Shown here: piece after piece, positions 3,814 through 14,495 of the stretch | Layout: the number at the start of each line of letters is the position of its first letter | Position numbering within the stretch: the stretch's first letter is position 1 | Made by a program: the position numbers and the translations under genes | Virus record (IMG/VR): IMGVR_UViG_2778261530_000011 | Strand: one strand, 5' to 3' | Source of the DNA: a virus | Taxonomy: Duplodnaviria; Heunggongvirae; Uroviricota; Caudoviricetes | Length of the DNA: 38,435 nucleotides | The notes under the pieces: model-generated | The model's input: the letters and a program-made list of their open reading frames with translations, nothing else | Told to the model about the DNA's origin: nothing | Databases searched by the model: none

Positions 3814-4590
3814 GTGTCCCCTATCAATATGCTGTTCTTTTCATACTACGAATGATAGTACAATTAAACCAAGATTGGTATACAGACTACCCGTCGTCCA
3901 GCACAAAAATTTTGTTGGTGGTGAGATTGAAAAACGTAGTTGAATCATATAGATATGCTGCTTGAGTATAAAAATACCGTTCTTAGCCATGCTCAAGAAC
4001 GGCTTGGTTTTGTTGTTGATAAAAATACTAAAGCTTTAACGAGTCTTAAATCAATATTGAAATAACAAAATCAAATTAATTAACAAGAGGTTTATCATTG
4101 AAAAAATATAACCCAAGAAAAATCATTAATTTTGAGTTCCAATTAACACAAAATACAACTTAATAATGCTCATGAATATATTAAATCATTAATGCAGATA
4201 GTATTATTACCGAATAGGAACACAGCAACTTAGCTTATTCTGCCCTATTTATACCACTGCTCCTGACCTTGTGTGGTAGCAGGAGCATCAGACCAGTCAC
4301 GATTCTTGGGTTGCTGACTTGGGGCACGATCATTACTTGATACATTCTACTTTTCTTCCTTGAGAACCTTAATATTTCCATATGTCGCTACTTTACCCTC
4401 CTGCTTTCAGGCCTACATTCATACGGGGTTCAGCGTGCTTTAAACTATACTTCGCTTACCATTAAAATATTGTATTTCTTAGTATCAGCCGATGACTTTA
4501 CCCTTTTGGGGCTCGGGACATTTTTTCTTGTATATTTCAGGAAAATATTAAATAACCATTTATCCATATAGTGATGTCAACTAATAGCTA

Positions 4591-9913: not shown

Positions 9914-10588
9914 TTAGGCCTTTATTGTGTATCTTCTTGGTTTTCCCGAGAAAATCACTGTACCAATTATAGAGCAATTACCGTTAATCTTAATGTAAGG
10001 CTCAGGCCAGTTTGGGTTTAATGCTTTGAGATAACGCTGTGTTCCATCTTCTATCAATCGCTTGAAGGTGGTTTCGCCTGTATCGTGCATCAATGCAATA
10101 ACGTCGTCACCGTGGCAGGCAGGGACTTCGGGATCAACAAAAATCATGTCTCCAGGGCGGTACTCATCAATCATTGAATCACCAATCACCCGCAAGATAT
10201 AAGTCATTTCGCCACAGGGTACAGGGCAGGGATACGTTTCTGCTGTGCTCAAATCAACCTCAGAATAGCCAACTTCTTTCCATGCTCCGGCCTGTACCCA
10301 TGATATGACAGGGACTAACGTTATTTGTTTGTTAGTGATTGAAACATCAGGTTTTTTTGTGATGTTCGTTGTCTGGTGTTCTTGATCAAGCCATCCGACA
10401 GGCAGGTCGAAACATTTTTCGATGTGCCGTGCCATGCTGTCACCGATATTTTTAGTAGCGCCATCCCCCATAAACCTGCTGGTTTGGGTTGGCTCGCGAT
10501 CAATCATGGTGGCAAAGGATGAATTTCCGCCAACACCATCTCTCAGTTTTCTGGCGTTAGACCGCCGGATGTCATGGATTGTTTTCAT
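9914..10588 (-). CDS. cI: CI-type prophage repressor (N-terminal HTH, C-terminal S24 LexA-like autopeptidase)
   Basis: 224-aa ORF; GDSM serine motif and downstream Lys of S24 peptidases; divergent from a Cro-like gene; ATG at 10588 has no SD, consistent with a leaderless PRM-type transcript. Confidence 0.85.
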   Translation of the reverse strand: MKTIHDIRRSNARKLRDGVGGNSSFATMIDREPTQTSRFMGDGATKNIGDSMARHIEKCFDLPVGWLDQEHQTTNITKKPDVSITNKQITLVPVISWVQAGAWKEVGYSEVDLSTAETYPCPVPCGEMTYILRVIGDSMIDEYRPGDMIFVDPEVPACHGDDVIALMHDTGETTFKRLIEDGTQRYLKALNPNWPEPYIKINGNCSIIGTVIFSGKPRRYTIKA

Positions 10589-10910: not shown

Positions 10911-11474
10911 ATGAGGCTAACCGTGGGTAAGTATCACTGGAAAGTAGAAAAACAGCCTGAGTGGTACGTGAAAGCTGTCAGAAAAACTATCGCAGCGTTG
11001 CCGGGTGGTTACGCTGAAGCAGCTGACTGGCTGGATGTAACAGAGAACGCATTATTTAACCGCCTTCGTGCCGATGGCGATCAGATTTTCCCGCTGGGAT
11101 GGGCAATGGTTTTACAGCGCGCGGCTGACACTCACTACATTGCGGATGCTGTCGCACAGTCTGCTGGTGGGGTGTTCGTATCGCTTCCTGAAATTGAGGA
11201 AGTAGAGAACGCCGATATAAACCAGCGCCTGCTGGAAGTCATCGAACAGATCGGGAATTACTCAAAGCAGATTCGTTCGGCAATCGAAGATGGGGTCGTG
11301 GAGCCACACGAGCAGACAGCAATTAATGATGAGTTGTATCTGTCAATTTCGAAGCTCCAAGAGCATGCAGCACTGGTCTACAAAATCTTTTGCGCTCCAG
11401 AAAAGAGTGACGCCCGCGAGTGTGCAGCTCCGGGCGTCGTGGCGTTTTGTGTCTGTGGAGAAACTAACGCATGA
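10911..11474 (+). CDS. YdaT-family / CII-like protein
   Basis: 187-aa ORF immediately after cro, as in Rac-type immunity regions; family assignment from recall. Confidence 0.5.
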   Translation: MRLTVGKYHWKVEKQPEWYVKAVRKTIAALPGGYAEAADWLDVTENALFNRLRADGDQIFPLGWAMVLQRAADTHYIADAVAQSAGGVFVSLPEIEEVENADINQRLLEVIEQIGNYSKQIRSAIEDGVVEPHEQTAINDELYLSISKLQEHAALVYKIFCAPEKSDARECAAPGVVAFCVCGETNA

Positions 11475-12307
11475 ACAGTTTAACGGCAAATAACCGTTTG
11501 TCGCAACAGCTGGTGGTCAGTGTCGCTGAACACCTGTTGTTACGGCATGAATGCAGATTACCAAATCACCTGGCTGTAAGTAACCACAGAGAACTTTACC
11601 TGACTGTGGGGGGCGAGTTGTGCGGGAACTTAACCGCTGGTTTCGTGACGGAAGAGGGCTTTATGTCCATGTTATTCGTTGGGAACCAGAAACACAGCGC
11701 GTTATCTATCTTCGCAAAGACTACCCGCATGAGTGCTTTAGTCCTTTGTGGAAATTCAGGCGTGATTTTGTTGAGTGTGAAGGACCACCAGCACATTGAT
11801 TCTGCCATTCCGGGACGTTACACTGTTCAGGCACCTTATAAAGCGGGTGACGGGATTGGCGTCCTGGAAATGTTATCGGCGATATATGACGCGCCAGCGT
11901 CTTTTTTATCGTCTGTGTCTGTGCACACCCAAATTATGGTGGGCTGGACGGGGGCACCGAAAGGTGCGCCGGTTTCCGATAACGCCGGTTACGCCAACCC
12001 CGTTCAGTTCACCACCAGCGAAATTGGCGTTTCCGGTGGTGAAGGTAATTCACTGTTATCGGAGGCTGCCATCATGGCTACTGTCCCAGCCCTCACTCGT
12101 CTGAATGATGAAGACTTACATAAACTCAGTTATGTAACAACTGCACTACGTGCTCTGCGCAAGGTAACTCTTTCGGATCCGCAGGCGCATCAGGTTTTGG
12201 TAGAAACCCTTCTTAACTTGCAGGCTGAACGTATTCGTCTGGCGGATAAGGCTAATTTTCATATTCACCGTCTCCTGAATATCAGCGGAGGGCATCGTCA
12301 TGCTTAA
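11471..12307 (+). CDS. Hypothetical protein
   Basis: 278-aa ORF; ATGA start/stop overlap with the upstream gene; no recognisable Walker motifs. Confidence 0.55.
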   Translation: MNSLTANNRLSQQLVVSVAEHLLLRHECRLPNHLAVSNHRELYLTVGGELCGNLTAGFVTEEGFMSMLFVGNQKHSALSIFAKTTRMSALVLCGNSGVILLSVKDHQHIDSAIPGRYTVQAPYKAGDGIGVLEMLSAIYDAPASFLSSVSVHTQIMVGWTGAPKGAPVSDNAGYANPVQFTTSEIGVSGGEGNSLLSEAAIMATVPALTRLNDEDLHKLSYVTTALRALRKVTLSDPQAHQVLVETLLNLQAERIRLADKANFHIHRLLNISGGHRHA

Positions 12308-12532
12308 TCCGTTGATCCTCAATATTTGCCGTTTGCTTCAGCGTAAAAAAACATCAATTCCTACAGTTGGGCAGTGGTACACCACGCCTGCAGGGCATGT
12401 TCTACGTGTTAGCCTGGTTGACCGTGAATGTCAGAAGGTGATTTGTGAACCGCTGGGCCGTAATTACCGCATCAGTATGCCGCTTATAGCCTTTTGCTCC
12501 GGAAAAAACATGAAGCATCTCGGAGGTGCAGC

Positions 12533-13351
12533 ATGAGTATGGAGCTGATGGTTAAAGCGATGAAAATTCGAGTGGGTAATCCATTGCGAAAACTGGTTCT
12601 GATCAAGCTGGCTGATAATGCCAGCGATCAGGGTGAGTGCTGGCCCAGCTACCAGCATATTGCTGACCAGTGCGAGATTAGCAAACGTTCTGTGATGAAT
12701 CATATTGCGGCCCTTTGTGATTCCGGGCTGGTAAAAAAAGTCACCCGGAAAGGTGAAAAAGGTAACTCAAGTAATATCTATCTCCTTCATCTTGATGGTG
12801 CAGGAGATTCACTAGGGGGTAGTGCAAATAATTCACTATCTGGTGCAGCAAATTCACCAGGTAGTGCAGGAGTTGCACCAGGGGGTGGTGCAGGAGATTC
12901 ACCCAGAACCAGTCACTCTTTTGAACCAGTCAAAGAACCAGTCAATGAACCAATAGCTGTTGGTGCATCTGCTGATGAGTCTGTGCGAGTTCGTTCAAAC
13001 CGACCGGAATACTCTCCGGAGTTTGAGCAGGCATGGCTGGCATACCCCAAACGTGCTGGTGGCAATTCAAAATCTGCAGCCTTCAAAGCCTGGAAAGCCC
13101 GTTTGAATGAGGGGGTAAAACCCGAAACCATGCTGGAAGGTGTGAAACGCTACGCGGGCTGGGTATCTGCGATGGGTAACAGCGGCACACAATTTGTGAA
13201 ACAGGCTGTCACGTTCTTTGGTCCGGATCGTCATTTCGAAGAATCCTGGGAAGTTCCTGCGGTATCTGCAGCCAGACGCGAGGACCCGTACTTCAAAGCC
13301 AGTTACGACAACGTGGACTACAGCCAGATCCCGGCAGGATTCAGGGGGTGA
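12533..13351 (+). CDS. Replication initiator (O-like) with N-terminal HTH and internal origin iterons
   Basis: ATG at 12533 with GGAGG SD; N-terminal HTH (SYQHIADQCEISKRSVMNHIAAL); tandem DNA repeats inside the coding sequence as in lambda O/ori. Confidence 0.65.
   Translation: MSMELMVKAMKIRVGNPLRKLVLIKLADNASDQGECWPSYQHIADQCEISKRSVMNHIAALCDSGLVKKVTRKGEKGNSSNIYLLHLDGAGDSLGGSANNSLSGAANSPGSAGVAPGGGAGDSPRTSHSFEPVKEPVNEPIAVGASADESVRVRSNRPEYSPEFEQAWLAYPKRAGGNSKSAAFKAWKARLNEGVKPETMLEGVKRYAGWVSAMGNSGTQFVKQAVTFFGPDRHFEESWEVPAVSAARREDPYFKASYDNVDYSQIPAGFRG
12797..12945. repeat. Candidate origin iterons: about five GGTGCAG...ATTCAC-type repeats at roughly 20-bp spacing, then three GAACCAGTCA direct repeats
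   Basis: ggtgcaggagattcac occurs at 12797 and 12887 with degenerate copies between; gaaccagtca at about 12906, 12922 and 12935. Confidence 0.55.
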
Positions 13352-13353
13352 TC

Positions 13354-13842
13354 ATGAGTCTTTTGAATGAAGTTCAGAAATTCATTGAAGCCCATCCGGG
13401 CTGTACTTCCGGAGACATTGCGGATGCTTTTGCAGGTTACTCACGGCAGCGCGTTCTGCAGTCAGCAAGCAAGTTACGTCAGAGTGGGCGTGTGGCTCAC
13501 CGTTGTGAAGGAGATACACGCAGACATTTCCCGCGCCTGACTGAGAGAGCGCAGGAGCCGGAACCACAACCAGTTCGTGAAACCAGACCTGTGCGCAATT
13601 TCTATGTCGGCACTAACGATCCTCGGGTGATTTTGTGCCTGACCCGCCAGGCTGAAGAGCTGGAGTCCAGGGGTTTATACCGTCGTGCTGCAACGGTGTG
13701 GATGGCGGCATTCCGAGAAAGCCACTCCCAGCCAGAACGAAACAATTTTCTGGCGCGTCGTGAGCAGTGCTTACGGAAAAGCAGCAAGCGAGCTGTATCG
13801 GGTGATGAGTGGTATCTGTCAGGGAATTACGTGGGGGCTTAA
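13354..13842 (+). CDS. PerC-family transcriptional regulator-like protein
   Basis: RGLYRRAATVWMAA motif resembles the conserved PerC/Pch core; start could instead be the GTG at 13348. Confidence 0.5.
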   Translation: MSLLNEVQKFIEAHPGCTSGDIADAFAGYSRQRVLQSASKLRQSGRVAHRCEGDTRRHFPRLTERAQEPEPQPVRETRPVRNFYVGTNDPRVILCLTRQAEELESRGLYRRAATVWMAAFRESHSQPERNNFLARREQCLRKSSKRAVSGDEWYLSGNYVGA

Positions 13843-14495
13843 TGAGTAATAAATATTGCCAGGCGCTGGTGGAACTGCGGAACAAACCAGCCCATGAACT
13901 GAAAGAAGTGGGCGATCAGTGGCGCACGCCGAACAACATTTTCTGGGGAATTAACACCCTGTTTGGCCCGTTTGTTCTGGATCTGTTCACCGACGGTGAT
14001 AACGCCAAATGTGCCGCGTATTACACGGCGGAAGACAATGCGCTGGCGCATGACTGGTCAGAACGTCTTGCGGAGCTTAAAGGTGCTGCCTTTGGTAATC
14101 CCCCATACAGCCGCGCCAGTCAGCATGAGGGGCAATACATCACTGGCATGCGTTACATCATGAAGCATGCCAGTTCCATGCGTGATAAAGGCGGGCGCTA
14201 TGTTTTCCTGATCAAAGCTGCCACCAGCGAAGTGTGGTGGCCGGAAGACGCAGACCATATTGCTTTTATTCGCGGGCGTATTGGTTTTGAACTGCCTGCC
14301 TGGTTTATCCCGAAGGATGAGAAGCAGGTGCCGACAGGCGCTTTCTTCGCTGGTGCTATTGCTGTTTTCGACAAGACCTGGAAGGGACCGGCAATCAGCT
14401 ACATCGGGCGCGATGAACTTGAGGCATGTGGTGAGGCGTTTCTGGCGCAGGTTCGCCAGCAGGCGGAAAAACTGGTCAGGGAGATGGCGGCATGA
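13842..14495 (+). CDS. Phage N6-adenine DNA methyltransferase (Dam-like)
   Basis: NPPY catalytic motif (FGNPPYS); ATG at 13842 overlaps the upstream stop (TAATG). Confidence 0.8.
   Translation: MSNKYCQALVELRNKPAHELKEVGDQWRTPNNIFWGINTLFGPFVLDLFTDGDNAKCAAYYTAEDNALAHDWSERLAELKGAAFGNPPYSRASQHEGQYITGMRYIMKHASSMRDKGGRYVFLIKAATSEVWWPEDADHIAFIRGRIGFELPAWFIPKDEKQVPTGAFFAGAIAVFDKTWKGPAISYIGRDELEACGEAFLAQVRQQAEKLVREMAA

What the first reader, a model, noticed from the sequence alone, without database searches (positions are those of the whole stretch)
12790..12950. Iteron-like direct repeats inside the O-like replication initiator gene (candidate ori)
Within the coding sequence of the HTH replication protein are about five spaced copies of a GGTGCAG...ATTCAC-type motif (two exact 16-mers at 12797 and 12887), followed by three GAACCAGTCA repeats. 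This mirrors lambda, where the ori iterons lie inside gene O. The repeats encode a Gly/Ser/Ala-rich linker, consistent with DNA-level constraint.
Basis: partly seen in the sequence, partly recalled or inferred. Interest (0 to 1): 0.45.

Follow-up and report, generated by a model that had tools for sequence, protein, structure and literature searches.

The report
Phage replication origin inside initiator gene
The repeats are real and are very probably the replication origin of an SfV-like prophage, built like the phage lambda origin but around an unrelated initiator protein, and followed by a 37-base element that is almost invariant across hundreds of related phages.

Summary
Five 15-bp dyads, GTGCA-N5-T(T/G)CAC, lie at 12798-12902 with spacing 24/21/21/24. 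Three exact GAACCAGTCA copies follow. Both sit in the disordered-linker coding part of a 272-aa HTH_36 replication initiator (12533-13351) of an SfV-like ("Eru6") prophage.

The copies are more alike at the DNA level than the peptide requires (0 of 20,000 synonymous recodings reach the observed similarity). About 70 of 78 diverse homologous loci carry their strongest repeat cluster at the same place in the gene. The repeat consensus changes with the recognition helix. In some homologues the copies fall in different reading frames. Two natural hybrids swap N-domain plus repeats as one unit, with the joint at 12902/12903.

In relatives, the gene just downstream is usually a DnaC-like, lambda-P-like or DnaB-like protein. 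This phage has none.

New here: the GAACCAGTCA repeats belong to a 37-bp block (12903-12939) that is 90-100% conserved across gammaproteobacterial phages, with no synonymous variation. It is the least stable DNA near the array, but it is not a lambda-grade AT-rich tract.

The initiator is not detectably homologous to lambda O. The origin reading is supported comparatively (about 0.8) but has not been tested experimentally. The function of the 37-bp element is unknown; unwinding or helicase entry is my best guess.

The parts
12533..13351 (+). Replication initiator gene (272 aa; equivalent to SfV orf39). Its ATG overlaps the stop of the upstream 78-aa gene.
   Evidence: The ORF is. Pfam HTH_36 covers aa 17-67 (43.5 bits), and PHROG 270 matches at 1.5e-88. 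The DNA is 97.8% identical to SfV orf38-40 and 99.8% to phage 2H10.
12533..12790 (+). Coding region of the N-terminal winged-helix DNA-binding domain (aa 1-85). The recognition helix is around aa 49-62 (SKRSVMNHIAAL).
   Evidence: AlphaFold model: pLDDT 73-87, four helices plus a beta-hairpin wing. Foldseek gives only winged-helix matches. The recognition-helix sequence covaries with the iteron consensus.
12748..12797 (.). Least stable duplex segment in the gene, just left of the array. It is a possible alternative or additional unwinding region.
   Evidence: Nearest-neighbour dG of 30-mers is -33.3 to -33.9 kcal/mol here, against about -41 on average. A matching soft spot at -170 to -120 nt from the element is seen on average in 65 loci.
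12797..12812 (+). Iteron 1, GGTGCAGGAGATTCAC.
12821..12836 (+). Iteron 2, AGTGCAAATAATTCAC.
12842..12857 (+). Iteron 3, GGTGCAGCAAATTCAC.
12863..12878 (+). Iteron 4, AGTGCAGGAGTTGCAC (perfect dyad GTGCA/TGCAC).
   Evidence: It matches on both strands.
12887..12902 (+). Iteron 5, GGTGCAGGAGATTCAC, identical to iteron 1. It abuts the conserved element.
   Evidence: The last interval is 24 bp, as in 62 of 68 arrays of the family.
12903..12939 (+). Family-wide conserved 37-bp element, CCAGAACCAGTCACTCTTTTGAACCAGTCAAAGAACC. It is also the recombination joint between the N-domain/iteron module and the C-terminal module.
   Evidence: Each position is 90-100% conserved over 63 non-redundant loci. There are no synonymous variants, while conserved N-domain residues show a modal codon fraction of 0.52. 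It is present in at least 120 viral contigs and, in the 80 examined, always inside this gene family. It is 53/53 identical in the hybrids L002 and L003, whose iterons are only 30-32% identical. It is the least stable 30-mer within +/-400 nt on average. An E. coli hit covers exactly query positions 371-407.
12906..12954 (+). GAACCAGTCA direct repeats at 12906, 12923 and 12935, plus a partial GAACCAAT at 12947. They encode (R)TS-H..EPV-KEPV-NEP. The first two belong to the conserved element. The 12-bp unit varies in copy number between phages.
   Evidence: Unit-number variants are P0017, P0018, P0021, P0056 and P0061.
13010..13348 (+). Coding region of the C-terminal helical domain (aa ~160-272). 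It is the presumed host-replisome recruitment domain.
   Evidence: The model shows helices 162-228 at pLDDT 57-76. PHROG matches to the C-terminal parts of 'DnaD-like helicase loader' and primosomal families. There is no Pfam match. The C-domain type varies among relatives while the N-domain, iterons and element are kept.

Best explanation
Window 12797-12939 is the core of the vegetative replication origin of an SfV-like temperate phage, embedded in the linker-coding part of the phage's own initiator gene.

Proposed mechanism:
1. After induction, rightward early transcription from the cI/cro region expresses the 272-aa initiator.
2. Its N-terminal winged-helix domain binds, probably as dimers, to the five dyad-symmetric iterons (GTGCA-N5-TKCAC). 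These are spaced two helical turns apart, so the bound proteins lie on one face of the DNA and form an O-some-like nucleoprotein complex.
3. Strain from this complex opens the adjacent, less stable DNA. The most likely site is the invariant 37-bp element that directly abuts the last iteron. The AT-richer segment left of the array is the alternative.
4. The C-terminal domain recruits the host DnaB-DnaC complex directly, because this phage encodes no loader of its own.

Shown by computation: the repeats, their DNA-level constraint, their position, their covariation with the DNA-binding domain, and the replication-gene context.
Inferred: binding, unwinding, helicase recruitment and origin firing.
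For: 1. Five exact core matches are clustered in 105 bp, against 0.27 expected in 38 kb.
2. DNA similarity between copies exceeds what the peptide requires: 0 of 20,000 synonymous recodings reach it. Rare CTA Leu codons are used, and Ser is AGT at one repeat position and TCA at another.
3. The host gene is a replication initiator. In 77 diverse relatives the next gene is DnaC/IstB-like (46), lambda-P-like (11), DnaB-like (3) or a Toprim fusion (3).
4. In about 70 of 78 species-representative loci, the strongest repeat cluster of the whole ~5.5 kb lies +250 to +430 nt into the gene. These clusters have 3-7 dyad-symmetric copies. Intervals are mostly 21 bp, and the last is 24 bp in 62 of 68 arrays.
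5. At least 8 iteron consensus types each pair with a distinct recognition helix. Examples: SKRSVMNHI with GTGCA..TTCAC; SKRSVMRHI with GTGAC..GTCAC; DRSTVRKHI with TGTAGGCCCAGAAAGCAC.
6. In L002, L003 and others, spacings of 22, 23 or 25 bp put the copies in different reading frames, so they are DNA repeats and not peptide repeats.
7. The natural hybrids L002 and L003 exchange the N-domain plus iterons as one block: 60-64% and 30-32% identity, then 100% from 12903 onward.
8. The encoded peptide is predicted disordered (pLDDT below 50 for aa 91-156), so protein constraint there is expected to be weak.
9. The same script recovers lambda's four annotated iterons at +347 to +414 in gene O. The lambda origin is iterons plus an AT-rich tract in the middle of O (PMC7466680).
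10. Iteron number varies from 1 to 9 among near-identical prophages, in steps that fit unequal crossing-over between repeats. Lambda (4) and Stx phages (6) differ in the same way (PMC7466680).
Against: - There is no experimental evidence for binding, unwinding or autonomous replication, for this phage or, as far as I could find, for any member of the family.
- There is no lambda-grade AT-rich tract. The 37-bp element is about -37.5 kcal/mol per 30-mer, against -30.7 in lambda. There is no DnaA box within 5 kb.
- There is no phage helicase loader, so the recruitment step is pure inference.
- Covariation of iterons with the nearby helix-coding DNA is partly expected from linkage alone.
- All five window copies are in frame, so a contribution from selection on the peptide cannot be excluded for this particular phage.
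- The structure model is of low overall confidence (mean pLDDT 57), and the alignment behind it had only 13 sequences.
Confidence: 0.8

Rival explanations
1. The repeats are binding sites for the initiator, but they serve control and not initiation. Possible roles are autoregulation or roadblock of the early operon, titration or handcuffing that limits replication, or exclusion of superinfecting phages with the same specificity. The true origin would lie elsewhere.
For: All the evidence for specific binding fits this reading equally well. Iterons in plasmids are known to have control roles (general knowledge). Cloned lambda ori/iteron DNA inhibits rep-lambda phages (abstract of PMC3349717, seen). 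There is no strong AT-rich tract next to the array.
Against: No other repeat cluster of comparable strength exists in the ~5.5 kb loci or in the window. The fixed geometry next to an invariant, locally least stable element and the adjacent helicase or loader genes in relatives fit an origin. In lambda the same arrangement is the origin (PMC7466680). Control and initiation roles are not mutually exclusive.
Confidence: 0.1
2. The repeats have no DNA-level function. They are slippage-prone low-complexity sequence encoding a flexible Gly/Ser/Ala/Pro linker, and the copies are similar because they duplicated recently.
For: The copy number is polymorphic. The encoded segment is predicted disordered. 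All five window copies are in frame.
Against: Variable positions cluster in the 5-nt spacer, while the half-sites GTGCA and TKCAC are invariant, including synonymous positions. Homologues with about 60-70% N-domain identity and saturated synonymous sites keep the same core when the recognition helix is kept. In other homologues the copies lie in different frames and encode unrelated peptides. Array geometry is conserved across at least 8 sequence types.
Confidence: 0.03
3. This rival concerns the 37-bp element only. It is conserved not as an unwinding or helicase-entry site but for another reason. It could be a docking site for a conserved host protein, a generic half-iteron bound by all family members, or a conserved 'linker' that promotes homologous exchange of origin-specificity modules between phages.
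For: The hybrid joint lies exactly at its left edge. The element contains ..GTCAC and ..GTCAA, which resemble iteron right half-sites such as TTCAC and GTCAC. It is conserved regardless of iteron type or C-domain type, and across Enterobacterales, Pseudomonas, Vibrio, Pasteurellales and Xanthomonadales.
Against: Recombination benefit alone is not expected to hold every base invariant across orders. I recognised no known host-factor consensus: no DnaA box, and IHF and Fis were only compared by eye. It is the least stable DNA near the array, which fits unwinding.
Confidence: 0.4

Closest known systems
Phage lambda origin (ori-lambda) within gene O, and the six-iteron origins of Stx phages 933W and P27
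   Same: Several dyad-symmetric initiator-binding repeats sit about two helical turns apart in the middle of the initiator gene. They lie in the part that encodes the linker between an N-terminal DNA-binding domain and a C-terminal recruitment domain. Iteron number differs between related phages, which lengthens or shortens the protein. The gene sits in the rightward early operon after cI, cro and cII (PMC7466680; lambda annotation and control).
   Different: The initiator is not detectably homologous to lambda O (hhalign probability 1.8%; no PF04492). Iteron sequence and length differ (15-16 bp against 18-19 bp). The AT-rich tract is replaced by a moderately unstable but almost invariant 37-bp element. 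There is no P gene. No biochemical or genetic data exist.
Initiator-plus-loader modules of relatives in the same HTH_36 family (for example Phi24B 'O' with a primase-helicase 'P', Aggregatibacter S1249, Stenotrophomonas BUCT708, Vibrio V039C)
   Same: They share the N-domain family, an iteron array at the same gene position, and the same 37-bp element with 0-2 mismatches.
   Different: Those phages carry their own helicase or loader directly downstream. The window has a PerC-like regulator there. Iteron specificity also differs: Phi24B uses TGGGGCAGGAGCTGCCC.
Iteron-type plasmid origins (RK2/TrfA, pPS10/RepA, F/RepE, P1/RepA)
   Same: Winged-helix initiators bind arrays of directly repeated sites of about 17-22 bp next to a region that melts. 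Repeats and initiator specificity evolve together (general knowledge; reviews PMC4980987 and PMC5043065 were listed but not read in detail).
   Different: Plasmid iterons are usually intergenic and are accompanied by DnaA boxes and AT-rich 13-mers. Here the array is intragenic, no DnaA box is nearby, and the Rep_3 family is not matched.
DnaD / phage 'replisome organizer' primosomal proteins of Firmicutes and their phages
   Same: There is a weak similarity of the winged-helix N-domain (Pfam DnaD_N at E = 8e-5; Foldseek hit to 2v79). PHROG families annotated 'DnaD-like helicase loader' match the C-terminal part.
   Different: DnaD_N scores below its Pfam cut-off (23.2 against 27 bits). No DnaB_2/DnaD C-terminal Pfam domain was found. 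DnaD is not itself an origin-specific iteron binder.

Membership tests
Lambda-type origin (ori-lambda with O protein, Pfam Phage_rep_O PF04492) | Four or more dyad-symmetric initiator-binding repeats inside the initiator gene, in the interdomain region | tested here: met
   Five GTGCA-N5-TKCAC dyads lie at +264 to +370 nt of the gene. The linker is predicted disordered. In the lambda control the iterons lie at +347 to +432.
Lambda-type origin (ori-lambda with O protein, Pfam Phage_rep_O PF04492) | Initiator homologous to lambda O | tested here: not met
   No PF04492 match at E <= 0.01. hhalign of the 13-sequence profile against lambda O gives probability 1.8%.
Lambda-type origin (ori-lambda with O protein, Pfam Phage_rep_O PF04492) | AT-rich unwinding tract directly flanking the proximal iterons | tested here: inconclusive
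   The adjacent 37-bp element is the least stable 30-mer within +/-400 nt on average over 65 loci (+5.5 kcal/mol). In the window it is only -37.5 kcal/mol, against -30.7 for lambda's tract. The left flank, 12748-12777, is -33.3.
Lambda-type origin (ori-lambda with O protein, Pfam Phage_rep_O PF04492) | Partner helicase-loader gene (P) immediately downstream | tested here: not met
   The downstream gene is PerC-like. No helicase, loader or primase family was found among the window's early genes. The feature is met in most relatives.
Lambda-type origin (ori-lambda with O protein, Pfam Phage_rep_O PF04492) | Initiator binding, O-some formation, unwinding and initiator-dependent replication demonstrated | not testable with these tools
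   This needs EMSA or footprinting and plasmid replication assays.
HTH_36-type phage replication initiators (Pfam PF13730; PHROG 270/8540/391) | HTH_36 domain above the Pfam gathering score, and a full-length PHROG match | tested here: met
   HTH_36 scores 43.5 bits against a cut-off of 25. phrog_270 matches at E = 1.5e-88 over aa 3-271.
HTH_36-type phage replication initiators (Pfam PF13730; PHROG 270/8540/391) | Located in the early rightward operon, downstream of the cI/cro/cII-like genes | tested here: met
   cI-like 9914-10588 (-), CII-like 10911-11474, Ash-like 11471-12307, orf38-like 12300-12536, then the initiator.
HTH_36-type phage replication initiators (Pfam PF13730; PHROG 270/8540/391) | As defined by this analysis: an iteron array followed by the conserved CCAGAACCAGTCAC..GAACC element in the linker-coding region | tested here: met
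   The window has both. 73 of 79 genome loci, and all 80 viral-contig loci examined, show the element after 3-6 iterons.
Iteron-type (plasmid-like) origin | Three or more direct repeats at spacings that are multiples of the helical repeat, whose sequence co-varies with the initiator's DNA-binding domain | tested here: met
   Spacing is 21/24 bp. At least 8 consensus types each pair with a distinct recognition helix. N-domain plus iterons are exchanged as a module in the hybrids.
Iteron-type (plasmid-like) origin | DnaA boxes in or next to the origin | tested here: not met
   There are four TTWTNCACA matches in the window, none within 5 kb of the array, and the count is at chance level.
DnaD-like primosomal proteins | DnaD_N and DnaD/DnaB_2 C-terminal domains above Pfam thresholds | tested here: not met
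   DnaD_N scores 23.2 bits, below the 27-bit cut-off. No C-terminal Pfam domain was found. No PDB relative was found by sequence.

The most novel reading that the evidence does not exclude
The 37-bp block CCAGAACCAGTCACTCT(T/C)TTGAACCAGTCAAnGAACC is a universal origin element that does not depend on initiator specificity. It would be shared by a very large group of temperate phages of Gammaproteobacteria. In this reading it is the defined site where the duplex opens and the helicase enters, or where a conserved host factor docks, and so replaces the generic AT-rich tract of lambda. Because it is identical between phages with different iterons, it would also act as the crossover point that lets phages swap origin-recognition modules (N-domain plus iterons) against recruitment modules (C-domain, with or without a loader).
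Probability: 0.35. Interest if true: 0.7.

Novelty: new variant of a known kind. Interest (0 to 1): 0.5.

Why it matters
This replication module ("Eru6"/SfV type) is common. The gene is present in 897 of 5,426 complete E. coli genomes, and it occurs in Stx2-converting, cdt-converting and serotype-converting phages. Published work classifies the module but names no origin for it.

A defined origin gives three practical things: a handle for building phage-derived replicons, a way to test how a loader-less initiator recruits host DnaB, and a way to ask whether replication type affects toxin-phage induction.

The table pairing recognition helices with iteron types is a ready-made natural data set on winged-helix DNA recognition.

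The invariant 37-bp element, if functional, would be a sequence-specific origin component shared across phage and host orders. That is unusual, because the unwinding regions of origins are generally defined by composition and not by sequence.

Tried and rejected
- DnaA boxes: none near the array, and the window count is at chance level.
- Sigma-70 promoters and intrinsic terminators in 12200-13900: no promoter, and one chance-level terminator-like site on the minus strand.
- RNA-level explanations for the conserved element: no Rfam family, and no stable structure on either strand (z = +1.1 and +0.2).
- A -1 frameshift on U-UUU-G leading into a UGA stop: considered and rejected, because TTT is TCT in 20 of 59 non-redundant loci.
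- Rare-codon pausing: considered and judged unlikely, because most codons in the block are not rare in E. coli, and amino-acid-changing substitutions are tolerated while synonymous ones never occur (inference).
- Homology to lambda O: rejected.
- Relatives with solved structures: none by sequence. Foldseek gives only generic winged-helix matches, and nothing useful for the C-domain.
- Plasmid collection: only a few hits, mostly phage-sized 'plasmids' or mislabelled chromosomes. This is no clear evidence of plasmid use.
- Literature: the Eru papers (PMC8044961, PMC8951638), the Phi24B genome paper (PMC3430580) and the SfIV paper (PMC3851460) mention no origin or iterons for this module. The SfV genome paper (Allison 2002) and Weigel & Seitz 2006 are not held, so an earlier mention there cannot be excluded.
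- My first pattern search used the wrong spacer (N6) and found nothing. It was corrected to N5.
- Iteron-like sites with one mismatch at 12039 and 13505 are within chance expectation.
- IHF and Fis consensus comparisons were done by eye only and gave nothing convincing.
Full report

Yes. The stretch 12790-12950 contains five copies of a 16-mer starting at 12797, 12821, 12842, 12863 and 12887, with spacing 24, 21, 21 and 24. The first and last are identical (GGTGCAGGAGATTCAC). The invariant part is GTGCA-N5-T(T/G)CAC, and copy 4 is a perfect palindrome.

All five exact matches to this core in the 38,435-bp window lie in 12798-12902. Dinucleotide shuffles give 0.27 matches on average, and none of 100 reaches the observed number. 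GAACCAGTCA occurs exactly three times in the window, at 12906, 12923 and 12935 (expected 0.05), with a partial copy at 12947. Tandem Repeats Finder reports both arrays independently.

**2. What gene are the repeats in?**

They lie in the ORF 12533-13351. This encodes a 272-aa protein with an HTH_36 domain (43.5 bits; cut-off 25) and a full-length match to PHROG 270, 'replication initiation protein' (E = 1.5e-88).

The window is a prophage or phage of the SfV type. The 1.2 kb around the gene is 99.8% identical to phage 2H10 and 97.8% to SfV orf38-orf40. It also matches Stx2a_WGPS2, which is the reference for replication type 'Eru6' in PMC8951638.

The gene order is cI-like, (cro), CII-like, Ash-like, a 78-aa ORF, the initiator, PerC-like, Dam, a LexA-DNA-binding-like protein, RusA.

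An AlphaFold model built on 13 sequences has a mean pLDDT of 57. It gives a confident winged-helix domain (aa 1-85, pLDDT 73-87), a disordered segment (aa 91-156, pLDDT below 50) and a small helical C-domain. The iterons encode aa 89-124 and the GAACCAGTCA region encodes aa 124-141, so both lie in the disordered linker.

**3. Are these DNA repeats or peptide repeats?**

In the window all five copies are in frame. I therefore recoded the 36-codon peptide 20,000 times using the codon usage of neighbouring genes.
- The mean pairwise identity of the five 16-mers fell to 7.92 +/- 0.55 (maximum 10.4), against 12.5 observed.
- Invariant columns never exceeded 6, against 9 observed.
- Ser is AGT at repeat position 1 but TCA at position 5, Ala is always GCA, and Leu is the rare CTA.
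- Variation is confined to the 5-nt spacer.

This is the pattern expected of a dyad-symmetric protein-binding site. It is not the pattern of a recently duplicated neutral repeat.

**4. Comparative evidence**

*Copy-number variation.* A protein search found 5,587 homologues. Among the closest 120, lengths run from 242 to 302 aa because the number of repeat units varies from 1 to 9. The 12-bp EPV unit also varies. The 242-aa and 302-aa forms differ from the window's by exactly 30 aa. That is the 90 bp between the two identical 16-mers, so unequal crossing-over is the likely cause.

*Natural hybrids.* Two hybrids, P0072 (locus L002) and P0065 (locus L003), have a different N-domain and a different repeat: TGCCA-N5-TGGCA-type dyads, 4-6 copies, spaced 22-25 bp. 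That spacing puts the copies in different reading frames. Their nucleotide identity to the window is as follows.

| Segment | Identity to window |
|---|---|
| N-domain | 60-64% |
| Iteron segment | 30-32% |
| 12903-12955 | 53/53 (100%) |
| Remainder of gene | 97-100% |

The N-domain and its repeats are therefore exchanged as one module, and the joint lies at 12902/12903.

*Species-representative genomes.* A scan returned 80 loci with N-domains 36-76% identical, from Enterobacterales, Pseudomonas, Shewanella, Marinomonas, Marinobacter and others.
- In about 70 of 78 loci, the strongest repeat cluster of the whole ~5.5-kb locus lies +250 to +430 nt into the initiator gene, with 3-7 dyad-symmetric copies.
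- Geometry is conserved. The last interval is 24 bp in 62 of 68 arrays, and the others are mostly 21 bp.
- At least eight consensus types exist, and each goes with its own recognition-helix sequence.
- Part of that correlation is expected from linkage. However, homologues whose synonymous sites are saturated keep the same half-sites whenever the helix is kept.

*Positive control.* The same script recovers lambda's four annotated iterons, at +347 to +414 nt of gene O with spacing 20, 24 and 23.

**5. Replication context**

In 77 of these relatives I scanned the gene directly downstream against Pfam. The results were DnaC/IstB-like AAA+ in 46, lambda P in 11, DnaB-like helicase in 3 and Toprim fusions in 3. 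The family is therefore the 'O' partner of classical initiator-plus-loader modules.

Phi24B's annotated 'O' belongs to this family. It carries at least 3 TGGGGCAGGAGCTGCCC iterons and is followed by a primase-helicase annotated 'P'.

The window is the exception. Its downstream gene is PerC-like, and no helicase, loader or primase family is found among its early genes. Host DnaB-DnaC would have to be recruited directly, presumably by the C-terminal domain. That domain varies in type among relatives.

**6. The second element**

- The anchor ACCAGTCACTCT (up to 2 mismatches) is present in 73 of 79 loci, directly after the last iteron. It is in frame 0 in 71 of them.
- Over 63 rows dereplicated at 90%, every position from -5 to +31 (window 12903-12939, CCAGAACCAGTCACTCTTTTGAACCAGTCAAAGAACC) is 90-100% conserved, apart from three that vary. 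The flanks are 30-50%.
- At 36 N-domain columns with a conserved amino acid, the most common codon accounts for 52% on average. In the block, the codons CCC, AGA, ACC, AGT, CAC, TCT, TTT and GAA show no synonymous variant at all. The changes that do occur alter the amino acid: ACC>ATC, TTT>TCT, CCA>TCA, AGA>GGA/ATA. The constraint therefore acts on the nucleotides.
- An exact-pattern scan found the block in at least 120 viral contigs. In the 80 fetched, it lay inside a gene with the family's HTH motif (74), or inside a copy that was truncated or frameshifted (6). It always followed 3-6 iterons.
- It is intact in phages of Stenotrophomonas, Vibrio and Aggregatibacter. It is reduced to CCAGAACC..GAACC..GAACC in more distant Psychrobacter and Pseudomonas phages. 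It is absent in an alphaproteobacterial phage that still has iterons.
- On average over 65 loci it is the least stable 30-mer within +/-400 nt: +5.5 kcal/mol relative to the local mean, and +6.9 in GC-rich hosts. A second soft spot lies left of the array.
- In the window itself the left flank is softer (12748-12777, -33.3 kcal/mol) than the element (-37.5). Neither approaches lambda's AT tract (-30.7).
- There is no RNA structure or Rfam family, no promoter and no DnaA box.

**7. Most likely mechanism**

- *Shown by computation:* a conserved array of initiator-specific dyads with fixed geometry, embedded in the initiator's linker-coding DNA, next to an invariant and locally unstable element, in a replication-gene context.
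- *Inferred:* initiator dimers bind the iterons on one DNA face and form an O-some-like complex. The flanking DNA opens, most likely in the 37-bp element that always abuts the last iteron. The C-domain brings in host DnaB-DnaC.
- *Confidence:* I put the origin reading at about 0.8, and the unwinding or helicase-entry role of the 37-bp element at about 0.4.
- *Rivals:* a control-only role for the binding sites (0.1); a functionless linker repeat (0.03); and, for the element alone, a host-factor site, a generic half-iteron or a recombination linker.

**8. Comparison with what is known**

The system works like ori-lambda, which is iterons plus an unwinding region in the middle of gene O (PMC7466680). 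It is not a member of that family. Homology to O was tested and not found. There is no P gene, and the AT-rich tract is replaced by a sequence-specific element.

It also resembles plasmid iteron origins, but it is intragenic and has no DnaA boxes. Similarity to DnaD is weak and below threshold.

In the searchable literature I found no description of an origin for this module. The SfV genome paper and the Weigel & Seitz review are not held, so prior mention cannot be excluded.

**9. Verdict**

In kind it is ordinary: a phage origin inside its initiator gene. It is a distinct variant for three reasons: the initiator family is unrelated to lambda O, the phage has no loader, and the array is followed by an invariant 37-bp element that I have not seen described. 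Interest is 0.5.

Noticed in passing
window 12039-12053 and 13505-13519: Two iteron-like dyads with one mismatch flank the origin at about -750 and +610 bp. They are GTGAAGGTAATTCAC in the Ash-like gene, and GTGTATCTCCTTCAC on the minus strand in the PerC-like gene. The total number of one-mismatch sites in the window is within chance expectation (14 against 6.5 +/- 3.0), so they may mean nothing. They could also be auxiliary initiator sites.
   Followed up: partly
window 12822-12956 (+1 frame) and 12741-12902 (minus strand): The repeat array creates spurious ORFs in other frames (44 aa and 53 aa). In some homologues (L094, L095, L097, L115) the real protein reads the iterons in that other frame (peptide VVQEIHQG). 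This shows again that the DNA is conserved and the peptide is not.
   Followed up: yes
L102 (Erwinia rhapontici) and L107 (Pseudomonas bharatica), initiator genes: These two genome loci have initiator ORFs that shift into the +1 frame within the iteron/element region and stop early (218 and 133 aa). They are probably decayed prophages or sequencing frameshifts in the repeats.
   Followed up: no
window 12533-13351 compared with E. coli genomes: The gene is present at >=80% coverage in 897 of 5,426 complete E. coli genomes. K-12-type genomes keep only its last 76 nt next to yfdN, a remnant in the CPS-53 region. One hit covers only query 371-407, which is exactly the 37-bp conserved element inside a different initiator gene.
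   Followed up: partly
window 12300-12536: A 78-aa ORF (PHROG 1153, unknown function, no Pfam) overlaps the stop of the Ash-like gene and the start of the initiator (ATGA overlap at 12533-12536). This suggests translational coupling with the initiator. Its role in replication, if any, is unknown.
   Followed up: no
window 13842-14492: The phage encodes a Dam-type N6-adenine methyltransferase two genes downstream of the origin (Pfam Dam, E = 1e-45). By eye, GATC sites are not clustered in the origin, so there is no obvious SeqA/Dam control of this origin.
   Followed up: partly
window 4048-4086: An 18-nt tandem repeat of 2 copies (AAATCAATATTGAAATAACA) lies in the ORF-poor gap between 3813 and 4785 in the early-left region. 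It was not examined.
   Followed up: no
Photorhabdus loci L114, L116, L118, L120, L148: These initiators (recognition helix SERSVQNHIKQL) gave no clear iteron cluster with my parameters, although they keep a diverged junction (RTSHPFEPV). In L114, L116 and L148 the best cluster in the locus lay about 1 kb upstream of the gene (AGTATTYAYTAAA-type repeats, probably operators). Their arrays may be too degenerate for the script, or organised differently.
   Followed up: no
plasmid collection hits, e.g. NZ_CP148393.1 (44.6 kb) and Arsenophonus nasoniae 28-48 kb records: Several phage-sized 'plasmids' carry this initiator family. They may be excised or extrachromosomal prophages. If they are maintained as plasmids, that would be circumstantial evidence that this origin type can drive autonomous replication.
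   Followed up: no
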